From positions 905,226-969,225 of the forward strand of contig BPJB01000001.1 in the NCBI GenBank assembly GCA_026004395.1: a stretch of 64,000 bases of DNA. The letters run 5' to 3'. The notes beneath the pieces were generated by a model. That model was not told the origin of the DNA. It saw only the letters and a program-made list of their open reading frames with translations, and searched no databases. The translations under genes were made by a program, and so were the position numbers. Positions 10,261 to 64,000 of the stretch are shown in pieces. Source of the stretch: Patescibacteria group bacterium. GTDB lineage: Bacteria; Patescibacteriota; Microgenomatia; Levybacterales; UBA12049. Numbering within the stretch: the first letter of the stretch is position 1; every line of letters begins with the position of its first letter.

Positions 10261-10284
10261 CCTCAAATGTATACTTATTGAATG

Positions 10285-10314
10285 ACAAGTATACAGGTAT
10301 ACCTGTATACTTGT
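10285..10314. repeat. 30-nt perfect palindrome ACAAGTATACAGGTATACCTGTATACTTGT (family 1)
   Basis: The sequence is its own reverse complement. It sits between convergent genes (9043..10260 plus strand, 10353..11276 minus strand). An identical copy is at 11915-11944. Confidence 0.85.
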
Positions 10315-10352
10315 TAACTACATCTATCAATCAAATAGCTTAATTTATTCCT

Positions 10353-11276
10353 TTAACGTCTTTGCGGGGTTGCGATTACAAAAAGCCTCTTCCACGTGGT
10401 CCCCGGAGGCCAACAGGTTTGCAGAATGAGTTTTTGAACTCCTGTGTGCTGACTATTCACCAGCAGATCAACATCATCTGCATCTTTAATCTCTATATGA
10501 TCTACTACATAGTTATATCTTCTGCCCTCAAAAAAAATGATTACCTCATCTCCTTTTTGCAGCTCCTTAAGAAGATAAAACACAGCATTATATCTGCCAA
10601 CATTCCAAAAATTATCTGTAGAATGAGCAAAGATATAAGTATTGCCCTCAAATCCTGGAAAAACAGTCCCCTTTGCATGAGCAACACCTGTTTGAAGTAG
10701 TGGCAAAAATTCCTTCTCATTAGTTGGATCAACATTCGGATATACCTTTGAGGTTGCGCCGATTTTGGGAATAACAATACTAAACTGCGTATCTGGAGGA
10801 ACAAGTATTTGCTGCTTGGCTCCTATGAGTGCCTCACCAAAACCCGGAGCTGTCGTTTGTACGGCAGAAGATGTATTAACCTCGACAGTATATTTGATAT
10901 CTCTCATTTTGATGATTTGATATTTGACTTCATAGACAAGTACGGGTCCAAAAGTTGCACCTACACCATAGAGACTGAAAAGCACAAGAAAGTTACCAAT
11001 ACTGCGAAGAATTACAAATCGTATTTTCTCTCTTCTACTCATATAGTGATCAGTGGCAGCTGATGAAGAACTGTGATTAACAGTTGCATTTTTCAAAACT
11101 AGTTCTGAAATGGAATTGTTTTCTGTTTTACTACTAAATATAGATTTGGGAGATGATGTTTTCTGTACTTTTAAGGGGTAAAAACTCTCACCTTTATACT
11201 CATCATTATATGCACTACGACTGTTTTCTCGCTTACGTGTTTTTTGCAGGAAGTCCTTGCCATGTGTATAACTCAT
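10353..11276 (-). CDS. sortase-family transpeptidase with a Ser-rich cytoplasmic N-terminal extension and a TM anchor
   Basis: IVIPKIGATSKVYP... YIFAHSTDNFWN ... GDEVIIFFEGRRYNYVV ... KLILQTCWPPGTTWKRLFVIA. These give a TLxTC-type catalytic Cys context plus the His and Arg positions of the sortase fold. Confidence 0.65.
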   Translation of the reverse strand: MSYTHGKDFLQKTRKRENSRSAYNDEYKGESFYPLKVQKTSSPKSIFSSKTENNSISELVLKNATVNHSSSSAATDHYMSRREKIRFVILRSIGNFLVLFSLYGVGATFGPVLVYEVKYQIIKMRDIKYTVEVNTSSAVQTTAPGFGEALIGAKQQILVPPDTQFSIVIPKIGATSKVYPNVDPTNEKEFLPLLQTGVAHAKGTVFPGFEGNTYIFAHSTDNFWNVGRYNAVFYLLKELQKGDEVIIFFEGRRYNYVVDHIEIKDADDVDLLVNSQHTGVQKLILQTCWPPGTTWKRLFVIATPQRR

Positions 11277-16034: not shown

Positions 16035-17834
16035 TTACATTTTTTCAGGAGATTGTATACCAAGAAGCCAAAGACCTTCTTTAATAGTCTCTCCAACTCT
16101 CTGAGTCAAAAGAAGTCTAAATTCCCGAATATTTTCCGATGCTGTGAGAATTGGGTATTTTTGGTAAAAGAGATTGAAATGTTGCGCAAGCTCAAAAAGA
16201 TAGGTACAAATATCACTTGGACTGTACTTCTCAGCAGCTTCTTTCTTGACATCAGACCAGCGTATTAGATCAATAAGAAGCTGTCGCTCATCTTTTGATA
16301 AAGAATGCAAACACTCCACCTTATTAAGAAAAACTTTTTTTTCTGTTAAACCTGACTTCTCCAACACACTCCTTGTCCTAACATATGTATATTGTAGATA
16401 AGGTCCAGAGTTACCTTCAAATGAGATTGATTCCTCGAATCGAAATTCAATATCTTTTCCTATACTACTTCGCAGCAGTGCATACTTTACAGCACCCACT
16501 CCTACGATCTCTGCTATCTGATCTTGTTCCCAAGAAGCCACCTTGTAATGAGAGGTTTCACCTCTTATCTGTTTTTTTACTTCATCAAGTTTTGCTTTTG
16601 CCCGTGCAACAGCCTCATCCAAAAGCCACTCTCCTGTAATAATGTTCCCCATCCTGCTACTCATTTTCCCCTCAGGAAGTCTGACCATACCATGACCTAT
16701 ATGCAGAGTTTTTTCTGCAAGGTAAGGCTTGATAAGAGAAAGGACTTGCAAAAGAACGCGAAAGTACTCATTTATTTCATTTCCAGTGACGATTATAGAA
16801 AGATCATAAGGAAAATCGTGATATTTACTGATAGCAAGCCCTAGCTCTTTTGCCTCATATGTAGGAAGACCAAGTGAGTTAATAAAAACACGGTTATGCA
16901 AACCATATTTTTCACCTTTAAAAATAATCGCATTTTCACTTTCCTCAAAAACACCTTTCTTCAGATACTCTTTCACCAATGCAAGACCCACAGGACTAGC
17001 CTGACTCTCAAAATAATACTTCCAAAACTTTGTTCCTAATCGTTTATAAATAGTCTCAAAATACTCCAAGCTCCAAGATCTACCCTTGTAATAAAGTTGT
17101 TTGATATCAGGATATTTTTCACTCTCAGGTGCTTCTACTATGGTGTATATTTTTTTATTAAGTTCTATAATCTCTTTTTTCGCAGCCTCATCTTCTTCAT
17201 AACTTTTCGCACCTAAAGCGTAGGCTTCACCCAAAAATTTTGCTTTTTCTTTTAATGTTCTTTTATCAATATCATTAAGATCTATATTTTCCTCTTTAAG
17301 CTTGATGATCAGACCATAAATAGCCTTCGCCACATGCAAACCTACATCGCCTTGATAGTTTACTCTTCTGACCTCTGCTCCTTGCGATTCAATAAGTCGT
17401 GCCAAAGCTTCTCCAACAATATTGCTATAGAGATGACCTATATGAAATTCTTTGAAAGGATTGGGGTCTGTGAACTCAATCATAATTTTTTTCCCATTGA
17501 ACTTTTTTGATTTTTCCTCTGATACAGGTTCTATTAATTGAGAGCAAAGAAAAGTATTTTTCAAAGTGAAGTTAATAAAGCCCGGTTTGGCTATATCTAT
17601 TCTTTCAATCATCTCAGATTTTTCTTCTTGTAACTCGTCAACCAACAAAGATGCTGCCTCAAGCGGAGACTTTTTAAGCTTCTTTGCGATTACAAAAGCT
17701 ACATTGGTTGCGTAATCTCCAAAAGAGGGATCTTCTGTAGGAGTCACAGATACTTGAATATCTGAAATTTGCATCTTTTCAAGAGCATTCTTAAGTAATG
17801 CTGCAATTTGAGAAATCATACTCACATTATACAC
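16035..17834 (-). CDS. argS: arginyl-tRNA synthetase
   Basis: NPFKEFHIGHLYSNIVGEALARL...RRVNYQGDVGLHV (class I HIGH plus the ArgS signature). GKMSSRMG as the KMSKS-like loop. 599 aa. Confidence 0.9.
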   Translation of the reverse strand: MYNVSMISQIAALLKNALEKMQISDIQVSVTPTEDPSFGDYATNVAFVIAKKLKKSPLEAASLLVDELQEEKSEMIERIDIAKPGFINFTLKNTFLCSQLIEPVSEEKSKKFNGKKIMIEFTDPNPFKEFHIGHLYSNIVGEALARLIESQGAEVRRVNYQGDVGLHVAKAIYGLIIKLKEENIDLNDIDKRTLKEKAKFLGEAYALGAKSYEEDEAAKKEIIELNKKIYTIVEAPESEKYPDIKQLYYKGRSWSLEYFETIYKRLGTKFWKYYFESQASPVGLALVKEYLKKGVFEESENAIIFKGEKYGLHNRVFINSLGLPTYEAKELGLAISKYHDFPYDLSIIVTGNEINEYFRVLLQVLSLIKPYLAEKTLHIGHGMVRLPEGKMSSRMGNIITGEWLLDEAVARAKAKLDEVKKQIRGETSHYKVASWEQDQIAEIVGVGAVKYALLRSSIGKDIEFRFEESISFEGNSGPYLQYTYVRTRSVLEKSGLTEKKVFLNKVECLHSLSKDERQLLIDLIRWSDVKKEAAEKYSPSDICTYLFELAQHFNLFYQKYPILTASENIREFRLLLTQRVGETIKEGLWLLGIQSPEKM

Positions 17835-31361: not shown

Positions 31362-32246
31362 CTAGTATCCAAACATCCACGCATGATGCAACTTCCTTTC
31401 ACGGCGTCTTAGAAGACCATACAGTTTGGAGTTATAAATAAAGGTAAATTTCTCAGGCCAAATTTTGAGAACAAAAAAGGTAATAAGAGGTATTAGAGGA
31501 AACACAAGCCACAATGGTCCCAAACCAAGCCCTGTAAACAGCTCTACAAGCCATTTCCAGAGTCTTTTTATCAAAACAATGATTTGCTGCCACCATGACA
31601 ACGCAATAAGCCTAACGCTATCTGATGGGTTTTCAGAAGGCTTCCTGTTGTACACTGCAGTCGCAAATAATTGATATACACCTGCTTTAAGATTGGTGAG
31701 CGTGTATTCGTAGTATCCATTTTGATCTGCTGTGATAGTAAAAATCATCCCATTATCCATATGGATGGTAACAGTAGCACCCGGCATCGTATAACCAAAA
31801 ACCAGAGCATTTCCTCCGGCTGCGATCTCTGATCTGAGAAGACCAATTGTTGGAGGGAGGAATATTCCATCCCGTCTTATATCCTGCACAGCCCCTCTCA
31901 CCTTAAAACATGTTTTGGAATCGCCAATACGTTTAAAATCAATATGTTCAAGACAATACTCTTTAATCGTTTTGCGAATGAGAACATCTAGTAGAGAAAA
32001 ATTGCCGCCTTTATCAGCTACTGTGGCGCGCACAAATACTCCATCAATCGTAAGCACAATTGATGCAAAAGGGGAAGCAAATCCGGAAATACTCAGATTA
32101 TTCTCTCCAACACGCGCCAAAACCTGAGTAGTAGCAGAATAATTTTTAAGACCAAGAATTTTGGCAAAATAATCTTTGCTTAAAAGCATGGAGAGAAGAA
32201 ATAAAAAAGATGTAATGCAACCGATGATAAATAACTTAGATTTCAT
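31362..32246 (-). CDS. membrane protein with carboxypeptidase-regulatory-like (CarbopepD_reg/Big-like) beta-sandwich domain
   Basis: Signal/TM at the N-terminus. ...GATVTIHMDNGMIFTITADQNGYYEYTLTNLKAGVYQLFATAV. C-terminal hydrophobic segments. Confidence 0.4.
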   Translation of the reverse strand: MKSKLFIIGCITSFLFLLSMLLSKDYFAKILGLKNYSATTQVLARVGENNLSISGFASPFASIVLTIDGVFVRATVADKGGNFSLLDVLIRKTIKEYCLEHIDFKRIGDSKTCFKVRGAVQDIRRDGIFLPPTIGLLRSEIAAGGNALVFGYTMPGATVTIHMDNGMIFTITADQNGYYEYTLTNLKAGVYQLFATAVYNRKPSENPSDSVRLIALSWWQQIIVLIKRLWKWLVELFTGLGLGPLWLVFPLIPLITFFVLKIWPEKFTFIYNSKLYGLLRRRERKLHHAWMFGY

Positions 32247-32277: not shown

Positions 32278-32313
32278 CTTAGAGGTTTCACCTCTTTAGA
32301 GGTGAAACCTCTG
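32278..32313. repeat. REP doublet (REPIN-like), family 2: TAGAGGTTTCACCTCTTTAGAGGTGAAACCTCTGA
   Basis: Two AGAGGT-nnn-ACCTCT hairpins in inverted orientation, directly abutting. The same unit flanks the RAYT gene at 61055-61167. Confidence 0.75.
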
Positions 32314-34304
32314 ATATTCAGAATGCTCACCTCAAACACACATTTTCCTATAGTAGTTGATAAAAAATATCTCATAGTTAGAAAGTGGGCGTTGTCCAAT
32401 TTTTACTTTAGAATATCAATCTTAGCCTTTTTCTTGAGACTACTTTCTCTCTGATCTAAAACTATTCTCTTATCAGCTCAAGCAACTACTTATTTTCACA
32501 TTCCTTCCTTCTGTTATAGCCATTATATTTGTCATCTTAGTCTTGTATCTGTTCTTCCAAAATCATTGCCCTTCGTTAATTTGTTGATCATCCCAATCTT
32601 CTTACTTGTGATCTCAATTTCTGCTTTCCTTCTTAAGCTAGAATAAAGATCCGCCTCATAACTGAGAAAAGCCAAAGAGAACATCTCTAACTCATTGTTC
32701 AAATCACACTTTAAATGTACCTCGAAATAACAATTAATACACTGCCACAGATCAATTTAAAGATTTGTTCCAAAGACATTCTCAAAAACAATCAAAGTAC
32801 AATTAGCATTCCTAATATCATTGTATATTTTCAGATTGGACAAATACAACTTAGAAAGAAGGTATGCTCAAATTACATTAGCCAATAACTTCTAATTTAA
32901 AAGTGCTGAAAAGAGGGAAATTGCAATTCTTTCACTCACTTGAATAAGACAACTTCTCTATCGCAGGAATAATCAATCCTCTAATATTATCTCTTTGTGG
33001 GTAGAATAAAGTATAAAAACAAATAAATGATTGATAAATCAATCTAAATTGCTAAATAAAAAAACTTATCAATTAATAACTCTCTCTGACAATTTTCAAT
33101 TTGTTTAAAAATGTTAAATATCATTTTTTGCTTAAAATAGGTAAATGTAGTTATTAATCAACAGTAACTCTAGATAGAAGGATTGCATTGTGAAAAAGAA
33201 AAATTCATTATTACCATTTTTCATTATCAACAAAATAAAAAAAACTTAGATTTTTAAAAAAATGAAAAAATCACATCCCTAGAAATATATCAAAATATCT
33301 CAACACGAAAGAAAGTAGAATATGTATTATTTTGATATATTATATATCTGTACCGATAACGACGTTTTTTTATCACACAACGAAAAAAATGAGAAAATTA
33401 ATGATGTTTTCATAGAAATTAACAACTTTTCACAAAAACTATTATCTTTTTTCCATTTATAGAAAAAATATCACAAAACATCAAAATATATCAAGATTAT
33501 TTTACTCTAGGATATTGACAAGTAAACTTAACAATACCTAAGCTATTAATAGATGTATTTTTATAAGAAGTATGATGAATAATTGGTATAATCTGTATAA
33601 TCTTGAGGCTAAAAACCAAAATCAAACACAGTTTTTTCACGACTCAACAAACGAGTTTGTGAAAAGTAAGCTCTACTTTGCGTCTGGGCTGTCTATATTT
33701 AATTTGGATCCCCTATCTTTGTCATTTATAACCTTTTTATCCTCTCAATCTTCGTTTCTGTCCTCTTGGCCTTTTATTTCTTATCCTATGCGCAGCAATA
33801 AACCTTCATCACCACTACTAAAAAAGACAGAGGCAATCTATCGCTTCAAGCTCCAAAACAATCGTTTTATGCCTGATACAGAACATATACAAACAAATCC
33901 AAGAAAGGAAGGTGACACTTTATGCGAACTCACAAAGTAGGTCAAGATCTAGTTTTTATAGCTTCCAAAAAATTCCCAAGAAGCTTTTTGTCCCAAAGCA
34001 GAAAGAATTCGATAACTTTCAAGTTGGATCTAAAATTCGATCAAGAGATAAATAATCATGATCTCATCAAACATAATAGGCTGAAAATCGGACTGCCAAC
34101 CAACTATGGGTTTGTTTGGTTTTCAGCAGCACTTATACTTAGTTACTTCATCAGCCAGTTGTACTTAATTTTCACAGGTAACTAAATATACAAACTTTAT
34201 TCTAGTCTTGCAAACAGATGGACTATTTTGTCTTAAAAAAACAAACACTAAAAATGAATTTGTTATCAATTTATCAATCATAAGTAAAAAATCTTAAATC
34301 AAAT

Positions 34305-55008: not shown

Positions 55009-58000
55009 ATGAAAATTTATAAAAAATCTCCCTCACAACCAAACTCTTTTATCAATAAAAGTAAAGCATCCCAACTACCCCTAAAATGGTCAGAAAGTTT
55101 TATCTCCTATATCATCATCCTCCCATTTAGACTCCTCTTATTAGTTGCAAATATAGCGTGGCAAGCTCTAAATTTTCCTCTTAAACTCTTACCTCATCGT
55201 CTTATACATCGCCTTAACCCCATTCAGCGACTCTTTCTTAACGTCGTCACTGCTTCCATCTTCCTCATCTTTGGTATCTGGATCTATACTTCATTTTCTC
55301 AACCCGAACAATCAGAAGCGGTGTGGTTTAATGATCAATGGCTTTATAGACAAAAGGTAGATATTACCAATTCATCAGGATCAAACCTTACTGATTTCCA
55401 AGTTGCAATTACCTTAAATACAGCTCAAATGATTACAGATGGCAAACTCCAATCAGATTGTGATGATATCCGATTTGTTAATCAAAAAGGAGATATTCTT
55501 CATCATTGGCGTATACCTACAACTTTATGCAACACATCTACTACTAAATTTTTTGTACGTATTACCTCTATTCCAACAAACGGTACCACAATATTTGTAT
55601 ATTACGGTAATTCAACAGCACAAAATATCGAAGATGCAGGAAAAGTTTTTGATAGAGGAGGCATTAGAGGATTCTTCTATGCACATAACTCAGGATCACA
55701 TCCTACCACATCTGCAGCTTTTGACACATTCTTCACATCCAATATTGCAGGATTTCAGGGGCAACAACTTTATTCGCAGATCAATTGTGCTAATAATAAT
55801 TGCAATCCTTTTGATCCAGACGATGATAATTATGCCACTTATTTTGAGGGAATAATTTATATCCCAACCACGGGGACTTATTATTTTGCAACTGATTCTG
55901 ATGATGCATCAGATATTTATATAGATGGAGATTTCACAGCATCAAGTAGCGCTGGTACAAATGTCGCTAATTGGTACAATGGTCATGGTCTTGCTAATAA
56001 TTGGTCGCATAATGGATCTATAGTACTTACTAAAGGTTATCATACATTTCGCTATCGTATGGAAGAAGTATCTGGAGGTGATGGTTTTCGAGCAGCGTGG
56101 CAAAAACCTGGTGACACTTCATATTCATATATTACGGGAGAATATTTTTACTCCAAAAAATATGCATCTTCTGAGCCCACGATCTCTCTTGGCACAGAAG
56201 AACAATCCCCAGGACCTGTTGCCTATTGGAAATTTGATGAAGGAACCGGAACAACAGCCTATGATAGCTCTACGAATAAGTATCATGGAATAATCAGCGG
56301 AGCCACCTGGAAACAAGAAGGAGAGTGCTTAATTGGTAAATGTCTATATTTCGATGGGGTAAATGATTATATTGACCTTGGTAGCTCAAGTCGGTATGGA
56401 GCAACCAAAACAACAGGAGCATACACTATTGAAGCGTGGGTCAAACCAGTTGATGTTGCTAGATACAATATCCTAACGCTTCGTATTGGAGGATTTCACT
56501 ATTTTAGTACTGGAATTACAGGAGGTGAGGCTGGCGGCATGCGAACTATGGTACATGATGCAGTATCCAATGCCAATTATTGGCCAACTTCAAATTTGGG
56601 TATTTTGAAAGCTAATCAGTGGAATCACGTCGTTTTCATCTTTGAAGATGGTGTTGGCTATAAATATTATCTTAATGGAAAATTAGATAAAGAGGTAGCA
56701 AATTCCAACTTACAATTCTACAATTATGGGGGAAATGCATATATTGGCTATGGAACTGATAGTACAACTTTCTTCAAAGGATTTATTGACGAAGTAAAAG
56801 TCTATCCATATGTTCGTACACCAGAACAAATAAGAGCTGATTTTGGAAGTATAAAAGGATCCATCAAAGGTACATCTGTAGGTATAGGTGGATCGAGTCT
56901 CACCTCTTCTCTATCCAATGGACTTGTTGGCTACTGGAAGATGGATGAAACGACGTGGAGTGGCACAGCGGGAGAGGTAATTGATAGTTCGGGGAATGAG
57001 AATAACGGGACAGCAGTGAGTGGTGCTGAAGCTAGCCCTTCAGCAAAATTTGGCAGATCAGGTTATTTTGCAGGGATAGATGAAAACGTGGCTATAAATA
57101 ATTCTCCTTCAATAAGTAATTTTTCAAATGGGGTGACAGTATCTTTATGGTTTAAAACGAATTCTGTTAGCTCTGCGCAAAGCCAATTCGGATACAATGG
57201 GGGTGGATTTTTAAATTTTTGGATGAATTCAGGAGTCTCCTCAACAAATCTACGATGGGAGACAAACTCAGGACAATCAATAACTTCTACTACAGCTATT
57301 TATCCTAATACCTGGTACCATGCAGTAGGCGTTTATGATACAAAGACAGGAATTGCAAGCCTCTATATCAATGGAAGAATAGATGTTTCAGCAAATCGAA
57401 CATTTAACACAAGTAAAAGTGGTATTGTAACAATTGGATCATATTCAACCTCACAATATTTTTTTAATGGTAACATAGATGAAGTCCGTATTTACAATCG
57501 CGCACTCTCTCCAGCTGAAGTTCAAGAGCTTTATAATTTTGCTCCAGGACCTATTGCTTATTATGATTTTGAGGAAGGACAAGGAACATCACTCAATGAT
57601 AAGTCTGGCAATGGTAATAATAGCACTTCCTTTGGAGGTACTCCCACTTGGACAAAAGGATTTTATGGAAAGGGAATGAAATTTGATAATGCCAGCACGG
57701 ACCAAGTCACGATCCCTGGTTCAGAAATACTCAATTACAATAACTATACACTTGGTTTTTGGATTAATTTTACAGATGAATATGATGGAAGCTATCGGCA
57801 AATTATTGCCAGAGATCCGAATGGATCAGATAGGTCACCAGGCATATGGAGATATCCTAATATGCTTCGAATACACTGGAAACATCCTTATCCAGGAAAT
57901 GCTGGACCGGTAGCTATTGGTCCTAATGGGGAAAATACAAGCTTTGTTGCAAATAAATGGTATTACATGACTGGTGTTAAAAATGGCACATCATTTGATT

Positions 58001-59646
58001 ACTACTTAAATGGAGTAAAAATCGGTTCAACATATACCCTTACTGATCCTATGATTAATGATGCAGGAGGCAGCTTTTACATTGGCAAAAGCGCAGGCTA
58101 TAACTCTGCAGGATTTATTATTGACGAAATAAAACTTTACAACTACGCGCGTACACAAAAACAAATTATCGAGGATATGAACGCCGGCCATCCAATAGGT
58201 GGCTCCCCTGTTGGATCTCAAGCACTATATTTGAAATTTGATGAAGGATACGGGACAACCGCTTACGATTCGGGACCAAATCGCATTAACGGCACTATTA
58301 CCAGCTGTTCGTGGACATTGGCAGGTAAATTCAATAAAGGTATTAACTGTAATGGTGGGGGATATGTAACACTCGGATCGAACACAGCATTTGATTCTTC
58401 CAGTTTTACCTATACATTTTGGATTAAAACAGGCGTACTGGGAGCGGATCAATATAGTAATATTATCCTTGGGCGAGAAAACTATACCGTATCCGGCTTT
58501 CGAGCAGGATTGGACAACAGTGGTCGTGTCTATTTCTGGACCACACAATCAGGAGGAACACTTAGTCTTACTTCTAATCGTTCTGTTACCGGTGATTGGC
58601 ACTATGTAGCAGTTACTTACGACTCAACTTCATCAACAGGCACCATCTATATTGATGGCAAAAAAGATGTTACTGCAACAGGAACATATATTGTTCCAAC
58701 TGGTGTCTCATTGGTACTCAATGGTGGTATTGGGGGTACTACTCGAAGCAATAGCCTTTTCGACGAATTTAAATTCTACTCCTCTGCTCTATCACCAAGT
58801 GAAATTCAAAATGATTACAACCGCGGTGCATCACTGGTCATGGGTGCCACCTCAACAAGTGATGATGGCACGACTGCCAGTAGCTCTGCCTCTCGCGCAT
58901 ACTGTATCCCTGGTGACACGTCGGTACCTGCAATCCACCTAGTTGGAGAATGGAAATTTGAAGAAGGAAGCGGTGGGACTGTGAATGACACATCCGGCAA
59001 CGGAAATACTGGGACATGGAATGGTACAGGTACGCTGCACTGGACCAAAGGAAAGATAGGAAAGGCTGGTAATTTTGACGGGAGCAGTGATTATGTCAGC
59101 GTCAATAGCAGCGCCACAATCCCTACTGGAGGTACTGCCAGGACTTTAGAGATGTGGGTATATACTACTGATAATTCCTGGGCAGATAACGCCAACACAA
59201 TCTTCGAGTATGGCACTAATACAACAAGACAAGCTTTTGGCATAGATATGAATCCCTTCCCTAATATCGAGGTTTATACTTGGGCTGATGATGCCACCGT
59301 TAATACAGGATTGTCAAACAAAGCAGGATGGTGGCATTTGGCTGTTACTTATGATGGAAGTACTACCATAAAAACTTATATTAATGGTGTGTTAAAAAGT
59401 ACAAAAACATTAGCTGGAGTCCTTAATACAGCCTCTTCAACGGTAAATATAGGTAGATCGGCTCTTGTAAATGCCTATTTTGATGGCCGATTAGATCATA
59501 TTCAGCTCTACGACTATGCTCGAACACCTTCTCAAATTACCTGGGATTACAATCGTGGCAAGCCGGTATTGCACACTGGAAATTTGACGAGTGCCAAGGA
59601 TCAACTGTCAATGATTCATCAGGCAACGGCAATTCTGGGACGATAA
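55009..59646 (+). CDS. giant membrane-anchored lectin-like protein: N-terminal TM, PA14 domain, at least 5 Laminin-G_3 (ConA-like) domains
   Basis: TM at about aa 75-95. PA14-like segment YFEGIIYIPTTGTYYFATDSDDASDIYIDGDFTA...TKGYHTFRYRMEEVSGG. Repeated LamG hallmarks: ..YWKFDEGTGTTAYDSS.N...G.. ; (L/M/G)(Y/K)FDG(V/S)(N/S)DY(I/V) ; W(N/Y/H)H(V/A)(V/A)..YD....K.Y(L/I)NG. The last ~25 aa (HTGNLTSAKDQLSMIHQATAILGR) look out of frame. Confidence 0.75.
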   Translation: MKIYKKSPSQPNSFINKSKASQLPLKWSESFISYIIILPFRLLLLVANIAWQALNFPLKLLPHRLIHRLNPIQRLFLNVVTASIFLIFGIWIYTSFSQPEQSEAVWFNDQWLYRQKVDITNSSGSNLTDFQVAITLNTAQMITDGKLQSDCDDIRFVNQKGDILHHWRIPTTLCNTSTTKFFVRITSIPTNGTTIFVYYGNSTAQNIEDAGKVFDRGGIRGFFYAHNSGSHPTTSAAFDTFFTSNIAGFQGQQLYSQINCANNNCNPFDPDDDNYATYFEGIIYIPTTGTYYFATDSDDASDIYIDGDFTASSSAGTNVANWYNGHGLANNWSHNGSIVLTKGYHTFRYRMEEVSGGDGFRAAWQKPGDTSYSYITGEYFYSKKYASSEPTISLGTEEQSPGPVAYWKFDEGTGTTAYDSSTNKYHGIISGATWKQEGECLIGKCLYFDGVNDYIDLGSSSRYGATKTTGAYTIEAWVKPVDVARYNILTLRIGGFHYFSTGITGGEAGGMRTMVHDAVSNANYWPTSNLGILKANQWNHVVFIFEDGVGYKYYLNGKLDKEVANSNLQFYNYGGNAYIGYGTDSTTFFKGFIDEVKVYPYVRTPEQIRADFGSIKGSIKGTSVGIGGSSLTSSLSNGLVGYWKMDETTWSGTAGEVIDSSGNENNGTAVSGAEASPSAKFGRSGYFAGIDENVAINNSPSISNFSNGVTVSLWFKTNSVSSAQSQFGYNGGGFLNFWMNSGVSSTNLRWETNSGQSITSTTAIYPNTWYHAVGVYDTKTGIASLYINGRIDVSANRTFNTSKSGIVTIGSYSTSQYFFNGNIDEVRIYNRALSPAEVQELYNFAPGPIAYYDFEEGQGTSLNDKSGNGNNSTSFGGTPTWTKGFYGKGMKFDNASTDQVTIPGSEILNYNNYTLGFWINFTDEYDGSYRQIIARDPNGSDRSPGIWRYPNMLRIHWKHPYPGNAGPVAIGPNGENTSFVANKWYYMTGVKNGTSFDYYLNGVKIGSTYTLTDPMINDAGGSFYIGKSAGYNSAGFIIDEIKLYNYARTQKQIIEDMNAGHPIGGSPVGSQALYLKFDEGYGTTAYDSGPNRINGTITSCSWTLAGKFNKGINCNGGGYVTLGSNTAFDSSSFTYTFWIKTGVLGADQYSNIILGRENYTVSGFRAGLDNSGRVYFWTTQSGGTLSLTSNRSVTGDWHYVAVTYDSTSSTGTIYIDGKKDVTATGTYIVPTGVSLVLNGGIGGTTRSNSLFDEFKFYSSALSPSEIQNDYNRGASLVMGATSTSDDGTTASSSASRAYCIPGDTSVPAIHLVGEWKFEEGSGGTVNDTSGNGNTGTWNGTGTLHWTKGKIGKAGNFDGSSDYVSVNSSATIPTGGTARTLEMWVYTTDNSWADNANTIFEYGTNTTRQAFGIDMNPFPNIEVYTWADDATVNTGLSNKAGWWHLAVTYDGSTTIKTYINGVLKSTKTLAGVLNTASSTVNIGRSALVNAYFDGRLDHIQLYDYARTPSQITWDYNRGKPVLHTGNLTSAKDQLSMIHQATAILGR

Positions 59647-60272
59647 CTATTGGTGCAACAGGGAGTCAGACCTCAGTCGGCACCTGCTCCACCTCTGGTA
59701 CTGCTTGGGGCAACGGAGCAACAGGTAAATTTAACCACTCACTTAATTTTGACGGGACTGATGATTATATCAATTTTGGAGATAATAGCAATTTTGACTT
59801 TGGAACAAATGATTTCTCATATTGTTTCTGGATCAAGACCACAGATACAGCCGGTCAAGTTGTCGGAAAAGGCGTTTGGTCATACGATGCATGGGGTTCC
59901 TATATATCATCAGGTAAAGTACGTTTTGAGATGAAAATTGAAAATCCACCTGGAAACAATTATACAACTGACTCTGCTGTTATCAATGATGGTAATTGGC
60001 ATCATGTTTGTGGAGTATATGATAGAGATACCAGTCTGAATGCTTACACCGATGGACAATTAACAAGTAGCAATACTTCATTCTCATCCGCTGTAAATTA
60101 TGATATAAGCAATGCTTCTAATTTTGCTATAGGCAATGGATCACCTGGTTATCTTTCAGGACAACTGGATGAAATTCAAGTCTTCAACTATGCCTTAACA
60201 GCCAATCAAGTCAAATCTCTCTACAATCAAGGCAGTGCAATTCGTTTTGCACCCGCAACAGGTACACCATAA
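59571..60272 (+). CDS. frameshifted 3' continuation of the PA14/LamG gene encoding one more complete LamG domain (no ATG; frame open from about 59571)
   Basis: In this frame: AHWKFDECQGSTVNDSSGNGNSGTITIG...KFNHSLNFDGTDDYINFGDNS...FWIKTTD...GNWHHVCGVYDRDTSLNAYTDGQLTSS...GQLDEIQVFNYALTANQVKSLYNQG. It has every hallmark of the preceding LamG units. The ORF track only shows the Met-initiated tail, 59931..60272. Confidence 0.55.
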   Translation, partial: AHWKFDECQGSTVNDSSGNGNSGTITIGATGSQTSVGTCSTSGTAWGNGATGKFNHSLNFDGTDDYINFGDNSNFDFGTNDFSYCFWIKTTDTAGQVVGKGVWSYDAWGSYISSGKVRFEMKIENPPGNNYTTDSAVINDGNWHHVCGVYDRDTSLNAYTDGQLTSSNTSFSSAVNYDISNASNFAIGNGSPGYLSGQLDEIQVFNYALTANQVKSLYNQGSAIRFAPATGTP

Positions 60273-60396
60273 CATAATATTTTCTTGCAAATTATTTAAA
60301 TACTGTCTGAGATTTAGAGACTTTAATGAAATAAATAGCAAAGAACCATGACAAGTGATAAAGCATTTTCTTTATCTAGTATTCATCCCTTATTAT

Positions 60397-61041
60397 TTAT
60401 TCTAGAATAAGATGCTTAATCTCATGCAGTTTCTTAGCATAGTCCTTTTGATCATTGACAAATTTTTTATATGCGTAGACTGATGGAAAAAGATCCAAAA
60501 CAGTCTTGGTATTACAGAGTTTTAAGGAAGATTCATCTATATACTCTTTATAACTTGACCATTCATACTCAGGATCTTTGCTCAGATTTGCCACTAGAGG
60601 ATTAAGGTGAATATAACGCGAGGTATGCATCAAAAGTTCGTCTGTTGGAATGGGTACAGATTTAAAAGACCCTTCAAAAAGTGTTCCTGCTCTTTTATAC
60701 TTGTTGTTGAAGTAATGTGTATAGGCATTGGATAACTGTTTCATAAATTGAGATATACCATTTTTCTCCTTTGCACGGATTAAAAAATGAAAATGATTGG
60801 GCATCAGGCAATATGCCAAAAGATCAACCTTTTTGGAAACATTTTTATTAAATAAACGCAGAGGAAGATCATGATACCTTTTGAGCACTTTTTCTAGTGG
60901 TGTGAGATAAATATATAAATAATAAAGAAAAATTCGATAATCCTGTTCATCCAAAAATATAGCTCTCTTATCCACGCCTCTATTAAAAATATGGTAAATA
61001 CCACCTACTTCAAAATTACGAATATGATACTTTGACGGCAT
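60397..61041 (-). CDS. IS200-like Y1 transposase / REP-associated tyrosine transposase (RAYT, TnpA_REP)
   Basis: YHIFNRGVDKRAIFLDEQDYRIFLYYL...LLAYCLMPNHFHFLIRA (HuH motif H-F-H) ...QLSNAYTHYFNNKYKRAGTLFEGSFKS (catalytic Tyr region) ...YIHLNPL. Flanked by AGAGGT-nnn-ACCTCT hairpins. Confidence 0.75.
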   Translation of the reverse strand: MPSKYHIRNFEVGGIYHIFNRGVDKRAIFLDEQDYRIFLYYLYIYLTPLEKVLKRYHDLPLRLFNKNVSKKVDLLAYCLMPNHFHFLIRAKEKNGISQFMKQLSNAYTHYFNNKYKRAGTLFEGSFKSVPIPTDELLMHTSRYIHLNPLVANLSKDPEYEWSSYKEYIDESSLKLCNTKTVLDLFPSVYAYKKFVNDQKDYAKKLHEIKHLILE

Positions 61042-61054
61042 AAAATTATCCTAA

Positions 61055-61167
61055 TAGAGGTGAAACCTCTTTGTCAATCTTTTTAGAGGTTTCACCTCTA
61101 AAAAGATTGTTATTACAATAAAAAAATAATTTTTATATATGTATTTGAATTAGAGGTTTCACCTCTA
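61055..61167. mobile_element. REP/REPIN cluster (family 2) adjacent to the RAYT gene: inverted REP doublet at 61055-61100 plus a third REP at 61151-61167
   Basis: TAGAGGTGAAACCTCT-ttgtcaatcttt-TAGAGGTTTCACCTCTA, then 50 bp on TAGAGGTTTCACCTCTA. The segment 61084-61170 is repeated at 63414-63500 (hairpin, AAAAAGATTG.TA.TACAATA.AAA.ATAATTTTTAT, hairpin). Confidence 0.75.
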
Positions 61168-61213
61168 ATTTCTCTCCTTGACAAATACAAAATTCAACTG
61201 ATACTCTGGATTC

Positions 61214-63397
61214 ATGGCAAAAAATTCCAAACAAGAGATTCTCTCATATTTAGAAAACGTATCGCTTTTTATATTGGGAATCACTTTTTTAGCATTTCCT
61301 CTACTTTTTACTATTCTGACCACTGATGCATTTATTCTGCCCAAACAAATATTGCTTGCAGCAGCTGCTGCCATCTCAGTTATCGTATTGGGTCTTAGAA
61401 TGATTATTGAAGGAAAAGTTAGATTGCGAACTTCTCCTTTTGATCTACCAGTTTTCCTTTTCTTAGTCACACTTCTATTATCAGCATTATTTGCTGTCAA
61501 TAGATATGATGCCCTTATTAGTTTTGTTCCCATGTTTTTTGTTATCCTGCTCTATTTTGTAATTCAAAATCTTGTGCAAAATGAAAAATCTATTCTTTTT
61601 CTTGTATCAAGCTTGGTATTAGGAACTACGGCATCTACAATTCTTTCAGTACTCGCATTCTTCAAGATTTATCTATTGCCGTTTGATTACACTCATGTTC
61701 AAACATTTAGTACCTTAGGATCTCTCCTTGATCAAGCAATTTTTACCGCTCTCATCCTCCCGCTTGCTGGCTATATCGCATGGCCAATGATTAGCCCACT
61801 TTTTAACAAAAAAACATCTGAAATTTTTGGTGATTCTGAGCAAAGAAGAAATACAGTCACACCTCTTACCATTGTATTTTCAATTGCATCAGCAGTTCTT
61901 CTTATTGGATTAGGGGTAACGGTATATCAACTCGTTACATCAGCCAAACCTCTGATATTGCCCTTAACTACAGGGTTTCAGACGGCATTTGCAGCAATTT
62001 CACAAGATACTGGACGAGTCTTACAAGGTTTTCTTTTTGGCTCAGGATATGGAACATATTTCACAGATTTTACAAGGTTCAAGCAAGCTACCTACAATAG
62101 CAATCCTGATCTTTGGTCATTAACATTTTTCCGATCTAGTAGCTTTGTGTTGGAACTTCTCGCTACAACAGGAGTCTTGGGTCTAGGATCATTCCTCTTT
62201 ATTGTCTACAGATTTATCAAAGAACGATCTTTCTTCCTCCCTATGGTTTTGGCTATAGCTGCAGCCTTTTTGCTCCCCTTCACCTTCAATCTGCAGGCAC
62301 TTTTCTTCATCCTGTTGGCGATTTTTGTCGCACTCAGAGCTCTTCATGCACCATCTCGGTACGCTGATTTGGAGTTTTACTTTGTCGCACTTAAACACGG
62401 CCTAATTCTGGCTCAACCTGAGGGAGAGAGAGCGCCTCATGATAGAGTCAATACCAGATATGGCAAGATACTACCCTTTGCCTTTGTTTTTATACTGCTA
62501 GCTCTGATTGGATACGTTGGATTCTTTTCTGTACAATACGCAATCGCTAATGTCACGTTCCAGCGATCCTATGATGCAATCAGAAAAAATGATGCCCGAG
62601 CAGCACTTACTGCACAGGCTCAAGCTATTCAACGCTTTCCTTATGAAGACTTCTATCATGTAGAGTTTTCACGACTCAATCTAAGAATTGCCAATGCTAT
62701 TGCTGCCAATCAACCTCAAGGTGCATCACCCAGTGCTGAAGTTCAACAGGATATTATCAACTCAATTCAACGCGCTATAACAGCTGGAAGATCAGCGATC
62801 ACCATATCTCCTCAAACAGCTCTAAACTGGAATAACCTCTCTGAAATCTATCGCTCTTTAATCGGATTTGGACAAAATGCAGAACAGTTTGCTATCCTTA
62901 CTGCTCAGCAAGCAGTAACACTAGACCCATCAAATCCTCAACAATATATAAATCTTGGTGGAATTTATTATCAGCTTCAGTCTTGGGATGAAGCACAAAG
63001 ACAATTTCAGCTAGCAGTTAATCTCAAACCTGACTATGCTAATGCATACTACAACTTAGGACATGCTCTGGAAAATAAAGGTGATCTACAAAACGCACTT
63101 CAAGCATATCAAATAGTCCAGCAGTTAGTTGCGAATGATAAAGCCAACTCCGATCGCATCAAAAATGAAATTCAAGCTTTACAAAATAAAATTAAATCAG
63201 GACAAGCTGCTCAGCAACAAGCATCAAATCAATCCAATCAACAAAAACAAGAGGGTGATTTGAGTGTAAATCAACCAAGGACACAGCTTCCTGAGCAAAA
63301 AGAAAAAGCTGAAATACCAGCTCCTCCTAAAGCATTAATCACTCCTACACCAACACAAAATCCTTCTCCAACTCCCACCCCATCACCTACAGAGTAA
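61214..63397 (+). CDS. O-antigen-ligase/Wzy_C-like polytopic membrane protein with C-terminal TPR repeats and Pro/Thr-rich tail
   Basis: About 12 predicted TM helices in the first 430 aa. TPR-like repeats (..QQYINLGGIYYQLQSWDEAQRQFQLAVNLKPDYANAYYNLGHALENKGDLQNALQAYQ..). Ends PTPTQNPSPTPTPSPTE. Confidence 0.5.
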   Translation: MAKNSKQEILSYLENVSLFILGITFLAFPLLFTILTTDAFILPKQILLAAAAAISVIVLGLRMIIEGKVRLRTSPFDLPVFLFLVTLLLSALFAVNRYDALISFVPMFFVILLYFVIQNLVQNEKSILFLVSSLVLGTTASTILSVLAFFKIYLLPFDYTHVQTFSTLGSLLDQAIFTALILPLAGYIAWPMISPLFNKKTSEIFGDSEQRRNTVTPLTIVFSIASAVLLIGLGVTVYQLVTSAKPLILPLTTGFQTAFAAISQDTGRVLQGFLFGSGYGTYFTDFTRFKQATYNSNPDLWSLTFFRSSSFVLELLATTGVLGLGSFLFIVYRFIKERSFFLPMVLAIAAAFLLPFTFNLQALFFILLAIFVALRALHAPSRYADLEFYFVALKHGLILAQPEGERAPHDRVNTRYGKILPFAFVFILLALIGYVGFFSVQYAIANVTFQRSYDAIRKNDARAALTAQAQAIQRFPYEDFYHVEFSRLNLRIANAIAANQPQGASPSAEVQQDIINSIQRAITAGRSAITISPQTALNWNNLSEIYRSLIGFGQNAEQFAILTAQQAVTLDPSNPQQYINLGGIYYQLQSWDEAQRQFQLAVNLKPDYANAYYNLGHALENKGDLQNALQAYQIVQQLVANDKANSDRIKNEIQALQNKIKSGQAAQQQASNQSNQQKQEGDLSVNQPRTQLPEQKEKAEIPAPPKALITPTPTQNPSPTPTPSPTE

Positions 63398-63413
63398 AAA
63401 ATATTAAAGAGAG

Positions 63414-63500
63414 TATTAGAGGTTTCACCTCTAAAAAGATTGATAATACAATATAAACATAATTTTTATGTTGTCCTTGGATTAGGGGTTTCACCTCTGA
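63414..63500. repeat. second copy of the REP-spacer-REP element (family 2)
   Basis: TTAGAGGTTTCACCTCTAAAAAGATTGATAATACAATATAAACATAATTTTTATGTTGTCCTTGGATTAGGGGTTTCACCTCTGAGG. Compare 61084-61170. The distal hairpin is degenerate (AGGGGT/ACCTCT). Confidence 0.7.
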
Positions 63501-63707
63501 GGGAGTGTGGACTCGAGCGGAATCGAACCGCCTACTCTTTCATGGTATTAATCAGTATTGAATTTAATAATCTTTTAATAAATTTGTAGAGAGGAAACAA
63601 AAGTACTTTAGAAACAATAAACGTTTAAAACTAAGAAAATATATTTAAAATAAGAATTTAAATTCGATCTTCTATTTTAGAGACAATATCATTCCTCTTT
63701 ATAAGAA

Positions 63708-63986
63708 TTATTTTGTATTATAGCAGGTTTTTAATACACTTGATTTAGACCAAACACCATTTTTATCTATAGCATAAACCCAATAGCTTATTTTTTTATT
63801 GCAGGCAACAGGTATAGTGTAAGAATTAGTTATCACACTGTCATTCATCCAATCTCCGGGTTTCATGTTTGACTCACTCCATCCATTACTTCTATCATCA
63901 ACTCTTACTGCATAACGCACAGCACCCTCAACTGCTCTCCATTGTATTATTAAATTAGGGTATTTGTAAGAAGCGCTAAGATACAT
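63708..63986 (-). CDS. hypothetical protein (possibly N-terminally incomplete; gene may extend past the window end)
   Basis: ORF only. Beta-sandwich-like composition (..WRAVEGAVRYAVRVDDRSNGW..). No confident domain call. Confidence 0.3.
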   Translation of the reverse strand: MYLSASYKYPNLIIQWRAVEGAVRYAVRVDDRSNGWSESNMKPGDWMNDSVITNSYTIPVACNKKISYWVYAIDKNGVWSKSSVLKTCYNTK

Positions 63987-64000
63987 TGTGTCATTAAGGG

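What the first reader, a model, noticed from the sequence alone, without database searches (positions are those of the whole stretch)
60397..63500. RAYT transposase with its cognate REP/REPIN hairpins; REP-spacer-REP elements also bracket the adjacent Wzy_C/TPR gene
The 214-aa minus-strand product carries the HuH (NHFHFLI) and catalytic-Tyr (SNAYTHYFN) motifs of IS200-like Y1 transposases. It is immediately flanked by AGAGGT-ttc/gaa-ACCTCT hairpins arranged as an inverted doublet (61055-61100, a REPIN) plus a single REP (61151-61167). The 87-bp REP-spacer-REP unit at 61084-61170 recurs at 63414-63500 on the other side of the 61214..63397 membrane-protein gene. A further REPIN sits at 32278-32313. 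REP-associated tyrosine transposases and REPINs are well known in Proteobacteria. A matched RAYT and REPIN set in a genome with this reduced, Gram-positive-like (possibly CPR) gene content, bracketing a cell-envelope gene, is worth documenting.
Basis: partly seen in the sequence, partly recalled or inferred. Interest (0 to 1): 0.65.

Follow-up and report, generated by a model that had tools for sequence, protein, structure and literature searches.

The report
RAYT-like nuclease gene with cognate hairpins
A single-copy gene for a tyrosine "HUH" DNA-cutting enzyme sits next to several copies of one short DNA hairpin that also occurs elsewhere in the window. This is a member of the known transposase-plus-repeat systems (RAYT/TIRYT), here in an ultra-small candidate-phyla-radiation (CPR/Patescibacteria) bacterium, and is interesting mainly as an extension of that kind.

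Summary
The 15-mer hairpin AGAGGT-TTC-ACCTCT occurs 7 times exactly and once with one mismatch in 64 kb, against 0.15 expected.

The protein is a Y1_Tnp member and its best structural match is E. coli TnpAREP. By its motifs (NHFH, YIHLNP, WSSY) it belongs with TnpA-Y1 subclass 2.1 (Group 1 RAYT, TIRYT) rather than with canonical RAYTs.

The gene is single-copy and syntenic, has no TnpB, and is under strong purifying selection. In 64 of 77 CPR relatives both flanks of the gene share a lineage-specific repeat, against 2% of control placements. Copies away from the gene are few.

Not confirmed:
- a Wzy_C domain in the neighbouring gene;
- a hairpin on the 3' side of the gene;
- a genome-wide census.

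Verdict: a new (CPR) member of a known kind, the REPtron/TIRtron. Two features hint at a regulatory role: the hairpins sit in the divergent promoters, and one clade lacks the catalytic Tyr. Neither proves such a role.

The parts
60397..61041 (-). Y1/HUH tyrosine nuclease gene (214 aa). HUH is H83/H85 in NHFHF. The Tyr aligned with the catalytic Tyr of solved relatives is Y143 in SRYIHLNP. A WSSY tail motif is present.
   Evidence: ORF. Pfam Y1_Tnp 8e-12. NCBIfam REP_Tyr_transpos 50.9 bits, below the cut-off of 80. Profile alignment to 2xm3 and 4er8. AlphaFold model pLDDT 90; best PDB match 4er8 at E 6.8e-6.
61048..61077 (-). Promoter-like site TTGACA-18-TAGGAT. It ends 6 nt before the ATG of the Y1 gene, so the mRNA is probably leaderless.
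   Evidence: Consensus scan, 10/12 matches. TTGACA and TAGNAT-N6-ATG are conserved in five syntenic relatives.
61056..61070 (-). Hairpin copy 'site 3' (AGAGGT-TTC-ACCTCT read on the - strand). It lies inside the -35/-10 spacer of the Y1 gene promoter.
61075..61109 (+). Hairpin copy 'site 2'. The core is 61085-61099, and flanking CAATCTTTTT/AAAAAGATTG extend it to a 16-bp stem.
   Evidence: DNA fold of 61050-61112 gives -19.2 kcal/mol, z -8.2.
61152..61166 (+). Hairpin copy 'site 1', 11 nt upstream of the -35 box of the TPR gene promoter.
61084..61170 (+). 87-bp composite unit A: hairpin, 52-nt spacer, hairpin, with both hairpins in the same orientation.
61178..61205 (+). Promoter-like site TTGACA-16-GATACT for the TPR membrane gene (ATG at 61214).
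   Evidence: The -35 box is invariant in five relatives.
61214..63397 (+). Neighbouring gene: a multi-pass membrane protein with C-terminal TPR repeats. It is divergent from the Y1 gene and bracketed by units A and B. It is context, not shown to be part of the system.
   Evidence: Pfam finds TPR only and no Wzy_C. The pairing with the Y1 gene is conserved down to 62-64% identity of the Y1 protein.
63417..63500 (+). Composite unit B, a diverged copy of unit A. Its hairpins are at 63418-63432 (exact) and 63484-63498 (AGGGGT..ACCTCT, a G-T mismatch in the stem). The corresponding spacer in relatives lacks it.
   Evidence: 74/87 identical; 88% over 84 nt. No hairpins downstream of the TPR gene in L002, L003 or L125.
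32281..32312 (.). Dispersed inverted doublet: two exact copies head to head, 2 nt apart (REPIN-like), 35 nt upstream of the gene 31362-32246 (-).
   Evidence: DNA fold -14.8 kcal/mol, z -6.3.
16551..16565 (+). Dispersed single exact copy, in frame inside the arginyl-tRNA synthetase gene, where it encodes RGETS (aa 424-428).

Best explanation
This is a REPtron/TIRtron-type system. It consists of a single-copy, vertically inherited Y1/HUH tyrosine nuclease of the RAYT superfamily, together with the short hairpin repeat it recognises. By its motifs the protein is TnpA-Y1 class 2, subclass 2.1-like, which corresponds to Group 1 RAYT or TIRYT.

Shown here:
- the protein family, its fold and the conserved HUH and Tyr residues;
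- the hairpin is a true repeat family in the window;
- across CPR relatives the gene is flanked at fixed distances by a hairpin whose sequence differs from lineage to lineage while the stem stays paired;
- the gene is under strong purifying selection at a fixed locus;
- an 87-bp segment bounded by two hairpins has been copied to a second site, 2.3 kb away, that lacks it in three more distant relatives.

Inferred from the solved relatives (E. coli TnpAREP, IS608 and ISDra2 TnpA):
- the protein binds the hairpin in single-stranded DNA and cuts and rejoins next to it, using the HUH-bound metal and Tyr143;
- this occasionally copies hairpins or hairpin-bounded segments to new sites, which would account for the doublet at 32.3 kb, the copy in argS and unit B.

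A further inference concerns regulation. One hairpin lies in the -35/-10 spacer of the gene's own promoter, and another lies just upstream of the divergent TPR gene promoter. Binding therefore probably also represses or tunes these promoters.
For: Protein:
- Pfam Y1_Tnp 8e-12.
- HUH and the Y..NP motif align with ISDra2 Y132 and TnpAREP Y115.
- Model pLDDT 90; top PDB hit 4er8 (TnpAREP bound to a REP hairpin) at E 6.8e-6, TM 0.66, ahead of the IS608 and ISDra2 transposases.
- Motifs NH[YF]H / FQ / Y[IV]HLNP / SS match subclass 2.1 in Table 1 of PMC6006769.

Repeat:
- 8 copies against 0.15 expected.
- It is the only multi-copy hairpin family in the window.

Association between gene and hairpin:
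- The same three sites occur upstream of the gene in relatives of 97% and 78% identity.
- In the 77% relative the hairpin is AGGGGT-CTC-ACCCCT, a change on both sides of the stem.
- Relatives of 54-57% identity carry TAGGGGTTnAACCCCTA on both sides of the gene.
- In 64 of 77 metagenome loci the two flanks share an 11-mer or longer, against 18 of 816 control placements.
- 38 of the 64 shared repeats contain a hairpin of 5 bp or more, against 2.7% of shuffles. Positions are fixed: median 26 nt before the start codon and 10 nt after the stop.
- A Rhodospirillum rubrum plasmid homologue is flanked by AAGGGGTCAGACCCCTT, the same hairpin type, which fits the published TIRYT consensus GGGGWSAS.

Domestication:
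- One locus per lineage, no TnpB, conserved neighbours.
- dN/dS 0.038 against the 97% relative.

Mobility trace:
- Unit B is absent from the corresponding spacer of three relatives.
Against: - No biochemical step was tested.
- In this window the gene has hairpins only on its 5' side, unlike most relatives.
- Copies away from the gene are few: 3 copies at 2 sites in about 60 kb here, and about 29 per Mb in relatives. Canonical REPs number in the hundreds.
- The three upstream sites are positionally conserved within the promoter region. This fits a regulatory role at least as well as a transposition role.
- A clade of homologues lacks the catalytic Tyr yet is conserved, so the family's selected function need not be DNA cleavage.
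- The protein scores below the NCBIfam RAYT cut-off.
Confidence: 0.7

Rival explanations
1. The protein is an exapted regulator. In this reading it no longer moves DNA but acts as a sequence- or structure-specific DNA-binding protein. The three hairpin sites between the Y1 gene and the TPR membrane gene would then be operators controlling the two divergent, probably leaderless, promoters. The few dispersed copies would be relics or additional operators.
For: - Sites 1 and 2 and both -35 boxes are positionally conserved across five relatives of 64-97% identity. Site 3 lies exactly in the 17-18-nt promoter spacer in four of the five.
- The Y1-TPR gene pairing is conserved.
- 9 of 120 homologues have F or H at the catalytic Tyr position. 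Three members of that clade show pN 0.13-0.14 against saturated pS 0.81-0.86, which indicates purifying selection.
- In that clade the half-site GGGGTG[AG]AACC is kept even where the stem is imperfect.
- Dispersal is low.
Against: - HUH and Tyr143 are intact in the window protein and in 111 of 120 homologues.
- More distant relatives have the hairpin on both sides of the gene, including overlapping the stop codon. That is a transposon-end layout rather than an operator layout.
- Unit B and the doublet at 32.3 kb look like copying events.
- No regulatory effect was tested.
Confidence: 0.17
2. It is an ordinary IS200/IS605-type insertion sequence, with a TnpA gene and subterminal hairpins, that happens to sit here.
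For: - There is a Pfam Y1_Tnp match, and the profile hits ISDra2 TnpA at E 3e-4.
- In many distant relatives the two flanking hairpins are in the same orientation, like IS200 left and right ends (41 direct against 23 inverted).
Against: - There is no TnpB and no second copy in the window.
- Every homologue looked up sits at one fixed locus across samples (22 contigs, all with the same neighbours).
- Synteny is conserved to 62-64% identity, and dN/dS is 0.04.
- The Y motif is Y...NP (class 2), not Y...Q (subclass 1.1).
- The protein has a roughly 70-aa C-terminal extension, and the best fold match is TnpAREP.
Confidence: 0.03
3. The hairpins are generic transcript-level signals, such as terminators or mRNA-stabilising stem-loops, and are unrelated to the neighbouring Y1 protein.
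For: - Some copies in relatives lie directly after stop codons, and one is followed by a T-run (L130 9952).
- The scan lists 63434-63416 (-) as terminator-like.
Against: - The window copies on the coding strand of the upstream gene have no T-run.
- One copy lies inside a promoter spacer and one inside a coding region.
- Independent terminators would not share an exact 15-mer, and they would not track the Y1 gene on both flanks in 83% of relatives against 2% of controls.
Confidence: 0.05

Closest known systems
TIRYT / 'TIRtron' (Di Nocera et al. 2013, PMC3733652). This is TnpA-Y1 subclass 2.1 of Quentin et al. 2018 (PMC6006769) and Group 1 RAYT of Bertels et al. 2017 (PMC5581495).
   Same: - Motif signature: NH[YF]H, FQ/FE, Y[IV]HLNP and an SS tail.
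- Low copy number.
- The flanking repeat has a G-rich arm. GGGGTGAG in the 77% relative fits GGGGWSAS 8/8; the window's GAGGTGAA fits 6/8.
- The repeats are partly self-complementary and form small families arranged as singles, dimers or clusters.
- A checked proteobacterial member (R. rubrum plasmid) carries the same hairpin type on both flanks.
   Different: - The host is CPR/Patescibacteria, which those surveys did not sample.
- The protein is shorter (214 aa against a median of 238) and no C-terminal HTH domain is detected.
- Quentin et al. report no REP-like structures for subclass 2.1, whereas here and in CPR relatives the flanking repeat is a clear 6-7-bp stem with a 3-nt loop.
- In this window the repeat is on the 5' side only, in three copies.
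Canonical RAYT/TnpAREP with REP/BIME/REPIN (E. coli YafM, PDB 4er8; Pseudomonas Groups 2/3)
   Same: - Single-copy, vertically inherited Y1/HUH gene next to its own palindromic repeat.
- The repeat also occurs as inverted doublets and as composite REP-spacer-REP units.
- Best structural match.
- The repeat sequence co-varies with the protein lineage.
   Different: - Sequence similarity is weak: profile E 0.08 to 4er8, and NCBIfam 50.9 bits against a cut-off of 80.
- There is no GT[AG]G guide; most window copies have TTAG.
- The hairpin is much shorter (15-17 nt).
- Copy number is far lower, probably tens per Mb rather than hundreds per genome.
IS200/IS605 TnpA (IS608, ISDra2)
   Same: - HUH/Tyr fold.
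- Recognition of short hairpins, inferred for this protein.
- Flanking hairpins in the same orientation in many relatives.
   Different: - No TnpB, not multi-copy, fixed locus.
- Y...NP rather than Y...Q motif.
- Extra C-terminal domain.

Membership tests
Y1/HUH transposase superfamily (Pfam PF01797) | Match to the family profile above the curated cut-off, with the HUH motif and a C-terminal-helix Tyr | tested here: met
   45.8 bits against a cut-off of 23. H83/H85 and Y143 align with the ISDra2 and TnpAREP catalytic residues.
Canonical RAYT (NCBIfam NF047646 REP_Tyr_transpos; TnpA-Y1 subclasses 2.2/2.5) | Score at or above the curated equivalog cut-off | tested here: not met
   50.9 bits against a cut-off of 80.
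Canonical RAYT / REPtron | Flanking repeats are REPs: a GT[AG]G tetranucleotide 0-2 nt 5' of the foot of the hairpin | tested here: not met
   The bases 5' of the eight window copies are TTAG (5 copies), TCAG, AAAG and TGAG. The definition is from PMC6006769.
Canonical RAYT / REPtron | The repeat is highly abundant genome-wide (tens to hundreds of copies) | tested here: inconclusive
   There are 8 copies in 64 kb, of which 3 at 2 sites lie outside the gene's neighbourhood. Relatives show about 29 extra copies per Mb.
RAYT superfamily in the broad sense (TnpA-Y1 class 2) | Y---NP motif; low copy number; not associated with TnpB; vertical inheritance | tested here: met
   YIHLNP motif. One copy in the window. 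One locus per lineage, with no TnpB in any neighbourhood. dN/dS 0.038.
TnpA-Y1 subclass 2.1 / Group 1 RAYT / TIRYT | Motif signature NH[YF]H or NHVH; FQ or W[EQ]; Y[IV]HLNP or YIELNP; SS motif in the proximal tail | tested here: met
   The window protein has NHFH, LFEG (LFQG/LMQG in most homologues), YIHLNP and WSSY, compared with Table 1 of PMC6006769. This is a comparison of motifs only. No tree with reference members was built.
TnpA-Y1 subclass 2.1 / TIRYT | C-terminal helix-turn-helix extension (Bac_DnaA_C, HTH_23 or HTH_28) | tested here: not met
   Pfam reports only Y1_Tnp on the 214-aa protein at E <= 0.01. The model shows short helices at 164-205 but no domain was identified.
TIRtron | Gene flanked on both sides by inverted repeats, many fitting GGGGWSAS | tested here: inconclusive
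   In the window, repeats lie on the 5' side only, and the arm GAGGTGAA fits 6/8. In the wider family, 64 of 77 loci share a repeat on both flanks, L003 has GGGGTGAG at 8/8, and the R. rubrum member has GGGGTCAG at 8/8.
IS200/IS605 insertion sequence | Multi-copy mobile unit, often with tnpB; Y---Q motif | tested here: not met
   No TnpB in any of the loci examined.

The most novel reading that the evidence does not exclude
In this Microgenomates-like CPR lineage the Y1/HUH protein may have been co-opted as a hairpin- or sequence-specific regulator of two divergent leaderless promoters: its own and that of the conserved neighbouring TPR envelope protein. A sister clade has lost the catalytic tyrosine but remains under purifying selection, which would show that the selected function does not need DNA cleavage. 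That would be a domesticated transposase turned transcription factor, kept in genomes that shed almost everything non-essential.
Probability: 0.17. Interest if true: 0.6.

Novelty: new member of a known kind. Interest (0 to 1): 0.38.

Why it matters
RAYT/REP and TIRYT/TIR systems have been described almost entirely from Proteobacteria, Cyanobacteria, Bacteroidetes and Acidobacteria. A full-text search found no paper that links them to Patescibacteria.

Three results here extend that picture:
- It is under strong purifying selection in roughly 1-Mb genomes.
- It is almost always flanked by a lineage-specific hairpin.

Subclass 2.1 had been reported as having no REP-like structure. The published TIR consensus GGGGWSAS turns out to be one arm plus the loop of a short hairpin, which ties the TIRYT and REP concepts together.

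The Tyr-less clade and the hairpins placed in promoters give a concrete way to ask what domesticated Y1 nucleases are kept for.

Tried and rejected
- Genome-wide census of the 15-mer in genome contigs. The scan stopped at 120 rows, mostly single chance hits, and never reached the source genome. It did show that the same core is a high-copy repeat in some Acidobacteriota and Dehalococcoidales.
- Exact-protein look-up of the window's Y1 protein: not on record.
- Rfam search of 60000-64000: nothing above the gathering score. The hits on ohsC, MIR9486 and similar families only reflect the palindromes.
- Pfam search for Wzy_C in the membrane domain: no hit even at E 10.
- Intrinsic-terminator reading of the hairpins: rejected, because there are no T-runs and the copies lie in a promoter spacer and in a coding region.
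- Idea that hairpins decay where the catalytic Tyr is lost. It is suggested by L125 but not upheld, because L224 of the same clade keeps a perfect ATGGGT-GGA-ACCCAT hairpin.
- Search for the relatives' downstream genes (zf_Tbcl, beta-lactamase, LysM-M23, rho) elsewhere in the window, to test whether hairpins mark a rearrangement: none was found, so the question is unresolved.
- Phage and plasmid collections gave only distant homologues of about 30% identity, so there is no sign of recent horizontal origin.


Full report
**What is in the sequence**

The minus-strand ORF 60397-61041 encodes 214 aa. It matches Pfam Y1_Tnp at E 8e-12, well above the cut-off. The 15-mer AGAGGTTTCACCTCT has a 6-bp stem and a 3-nt loop. 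It occurs exactly at 16551 (+), 32281 (+), 32298 (-), 61056 (-), 61085 (+), 61152 (+) and 63418 (+), and with one mismatch at 63484 (+). With up to 2 mismatches, 0.15 matches are expected, and none of 100 shuffles reaches the observed number. An unbiased scan for perfect hairpins shows this is the only multi-copy hairpin family in the window.

As single-stranded DNA the copies fold well. The region 61050-61112 gives -19.2 kcal/mol (z -8.2), because the 61085 copy is extended to a 16-bp stem. The doublet at 32281-32312 gives -14.8 kcal/mol. The 63484 copy, which has a G-T mismatch, folds no better than shuffled sequence.

The unit 61084-61170 (hairpin, spacer, hairpin, both in the same orientation) recurs at 63417-63500. 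The two are 74/87 identical in a global alignment and 88% identical over 84 nt by blastn.

The corrections are these. The gene has hairpins on its 5' side only. The 'Wzy_C' label for the neighbouring gene is not supported: Pfam finds TPR repeats only, and nothing in the first 509 residues even at E 10.

**What the protein is**

NCBIfam's REP-associated tyrosine transposase model matches at 50.9 bits, below its cut-off of 80. A profile of 26 homologues finds ISDra2 TnpA (E 3e-4) and E. coli TnpAREP 4er8 (E 0.08) among solved structures. Y107 is nevertheless conserved in 90% or more of homologues, and its role is unknown.

An AlphaFold model built on 73 homologues is confident (pLDDT 90, pTM 0.88). 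Its best PDB match is 4er8, TnpAREP bound to a REP hairpin, at E 6.8e-6 and TM 0.66 over the whole target. This is ahead of the IS608 and ISDra2 transposases.

The motif set is NHFH, LFEG (LFQG or LMQG in most homologues), YIHLNP and WSSY. It matches the signature that Quentin et al. give for TnpA-Y1 subclass 2.1 (NH[YF]H, FQ, Y[IV]HLNP, SS tail; PMC6006769 Table 1). Those authors equate subclass 2.1 with Bertels' Group 1 RAYTs and with Di Nocera's TIRYTs. This placement rests on motifs only. The C-terminal HTH domain typical of subclass 2.1 was not detected.

**Is it a mobile IS or a resident gene?**

More than 7,900 homologous clusters were scored, and every named one among the best 120 listed comes from Patescibacteria (Curtiss-, Davies- and Levybacteria and 'Patescibacteria group'). 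Every homologue looked up sits at one locus with the same neighbours across samples. For P0094 that was 22 contigs, all in one context.

No TnpB is adjacent in any locus. Down to 62-64% protein identity the gene remains divergently paired with the TPR membrane gene and is followed by a giant LamG protein gene. The window holds no second copy or fragment. Against the 97% relative dN/dS is 0.038, and in deeper comparisons pN is 0.13-0.23 with synonymous sites saturated. Phage and plasmid collections hold only relatives of about 30% identity. This is the behaviour of a domesticated gene, not of an insertion sequence.

**Does the hairpin belong to the protein?**

In the syntenic relatives the spacer between the TPR gene and the Y1 gene carries hairpin sites at matching positions:
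- In the 97% and 78% relatives the sequence is the same as here.
- In the 77% relative it is AGGGGT-CTC-ACCCCT, a change on both sides of the stem.
- In 62-64% relatives the stems are partly imperfect, although one site is a perfect ATGGGT-GGA-ACCCAT.

Relatives of 54-57% identity, which sit in other genomic contexts, carry TAGGGGTTnAACCCCTA on both sides of the gene, with the downstream copy overlapping the stop codon. They also have a few more copies within 20 kb.

I then fetched 80 further loci of 35-58% identity and tested them without assuming any sequence. In 64 of 77 loci with both flanks available, the 150 nt upstream and the 100 nt downstream share an exact 11-mer or longer. Only 18 of 816 control placements in the same loci do so. 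Of the 64 shared stretches, 38 contain a hairpin of 5 bp or more, against 2.7% of shuffles. The repeats lie at fixed distances: a median of 26 nt before the start codon and 10 nt after the stop. The sequences differ widely between lineages, for example TCCACCTTTAAGGTGGA, ACAGGGTTCCACCCTGT and GCAGGGCCAGGCCCTGC.

A proteobacterial homologue on a Rhodospirillum rubrum plasmid (motifs NHIH, WQ, YIELNP, WSSY) is flanked on both sides by AAGGGGTCAGACCCCTT. This is the same hairpin type, and it fits the published TIRYT terminal-repeat consensus GGGGWSAS. That consensus is therefore one arm plus the loop of a short hairpin. The association between gene and hairpin is a property of the whole family.

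**How abundant are the repeats?**

They are not very abundant. Outside the gene's flanks, the relatives have 13 extra 12-mer matches in 446 kb, about 29 per Mb. About 0.05 would be expected by chance, my own estimate from the 12-mer length and the bases searched. Many 20-kb loci have none.

The window is somewhat richer. Besides the three upstream sites it has unit B, the doublet at 32.3 kb and the copy in argS. Unit B is missing from the corresponding spacer of three relatives. It was therefore probably added after the window's lineage split from the 78%-identical relative L002; the spacer of the closest relative, L001, is not covered by its contig. The 15% divergence between units A and B shows the event is not recent.

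**Placement relative to promoters**

The consensus scan finds TTGACA-18-TAGGAT at 61077-61048 (-), ending 6 nt before the Y1 gene's ATG. It also finds TTGACA-16-GATACT at 61178-61205 (+), ending 8 nt before the TPR gene's ATG. Both -35 boxes and the TAGNAT-N6-ATG arrangement are conserved in the five-way alignment, which suggests leaderless transcripts.

The hairpin at 61056-61070 fills the promoter spacer of the Y1 gene in four of the five relatives. The hairpin at 61152-61166 lies 11 nt upstream of the other -35 box. The 'REPIN' next to the gene is therefore a conserved piece of promoter architecture. Binding of the protein there would be expected to affect transcription. This is an inference and was not tested.

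**The Tyr-less clade**

Nine of the 120 best homologues have Phe or His at the position of Y143. Eight of them form a clade at 62-69% identity to the window protein, and one, P0076, also lacks the first His of the HUH motif. Three members of that clade from different samples keep the same synteny and show pN 0.13-0.14 against pS 0.81-0.86. The protein is thus maintained without the canonical nucleophile. This is the strongest hint that at least part of the family's selected function is not DNA cleavage.

**Verdict**

The best-supported reading is a REPtron/TIRtron-type system: a domesticated Y1/HUH nuclease of the RAYT superfamily with its cognate hairpin repeats (confidence about 0.7). The protein probably acts on the hairpin in single-stranded DNA, as its solved relatives do, and has a probable side role in regulating itself or its neighbour.

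The main rival is that in this lineage the protein is purely a regulator (about 0.17). An ordinary IS200 element (about 0.03) and unrelated terminator hairpins (about 0.05) are poorly supported.

The system fails two defining tests of canonical RAYT/REP: the family cut-off and the GT[AG]G tag. It meets the motif test of subclass 2.1/TIRYT. It is therefore best filed as a CPR member of the TIRYT/Group 1 branch that works like a RAYT. No paper in the searchable library links RAYTs or REPINs with Patescibacteria. The finding is a taxonomic and structural extension of a known kind, not a new kind.

Noticed in passing
window 16551-16565: An exact hairpin copy lies in frame inside the arginyl-tRNA synthetase gene. 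It encodes RGETS (aa 424-428) in what looks like a variable linker after the KMSSR motif. Whether it is an insertion relative to homologous ArgRS proteins was not checked.
   Followed up: partly
window 63501-63545 (-): A tRNA-like 3' fragment (T-arm plus acceptor: GGCGGTTCGATTCCGCTCGAGTCCA) directly abuts the last hairpin. ARAGORN finds no complete tRNA, and Rfam gives only a weak tmRNA-like hit. Synteny with relatives (zf_Tbcl, beta-lactamase, LysM-M23 and rho genes) ends here, and none of those genes is in the window. This may be an integration or rearrangement scar.
   Followed up: partly
window 32313-33570: A stretch of about 1.25 kb, AT-rich and without any ORF of 90 aa or more, lies immediately next to the hairpin doublet. 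Its nature is unknown.
   Followed up: no
window 55009-60272: The giant LamG/DUF2341 surface-protein gene is split into three ORFs. It changes reading frame near 59570 relative to the intact 1768-aa homologue in L001. This is either a frameshift or pseudogene, or an assembly error.
   Followed up: partly
L007, L026, L040, L083, L124 (one Blastocatellia MAG); L008, L009, L029, L049, L073 (Acidobacteriota MAG146); L012, L021, L042, L080, L094, L114 (Dehalococcoidales): The identical 15-mer is the core of a longer high-copy repeat, CCAGAGGTTTCACCTCTGGCTACCTTCT, in Blastocatellia, Pyrinomonadaceae and Chloracidobacterium genomes. In places it is tandem with a 29-nt period and sits between conserved CAACGCGGGA and GCCGCTTCGCGGCA motifs. 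In Dehalococcoidales it occurs as AGAGAGGTTTCACCTCTCT. Whether these repeats are tied to Y1 genes there was not tested.
   Followed up: partly
P0020, P0022-P0024, P0026-P0028, P0076, P0098; loci L125, L222, L224: A clade of homologues has Phe or His in place of the tyrosine aligned with the catalytic Tyr. It keeps full length, synteny and strong purifying selection.
   Followed up: partly
L226 (Rhodospirillum rubrum plasmid NC_007641, 32481-33188): The annotated 'transposase' (236 aa, subclass 2.1 motifs) is flanked by inverted copies of AAGGGGTCAGACCCCTT. This shows that the published TIRYT consensus GGGGWSAS is one arm plus the loop of a short hairpin.
   Followed up: partly
L202 about 7940-8710 and 10001-10702: Extra copies of the flank repeat and a second tblastn segment about 2 kb upstream suggest two Y1 genes in tandem in this metagenome contig.
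   Followed up: no
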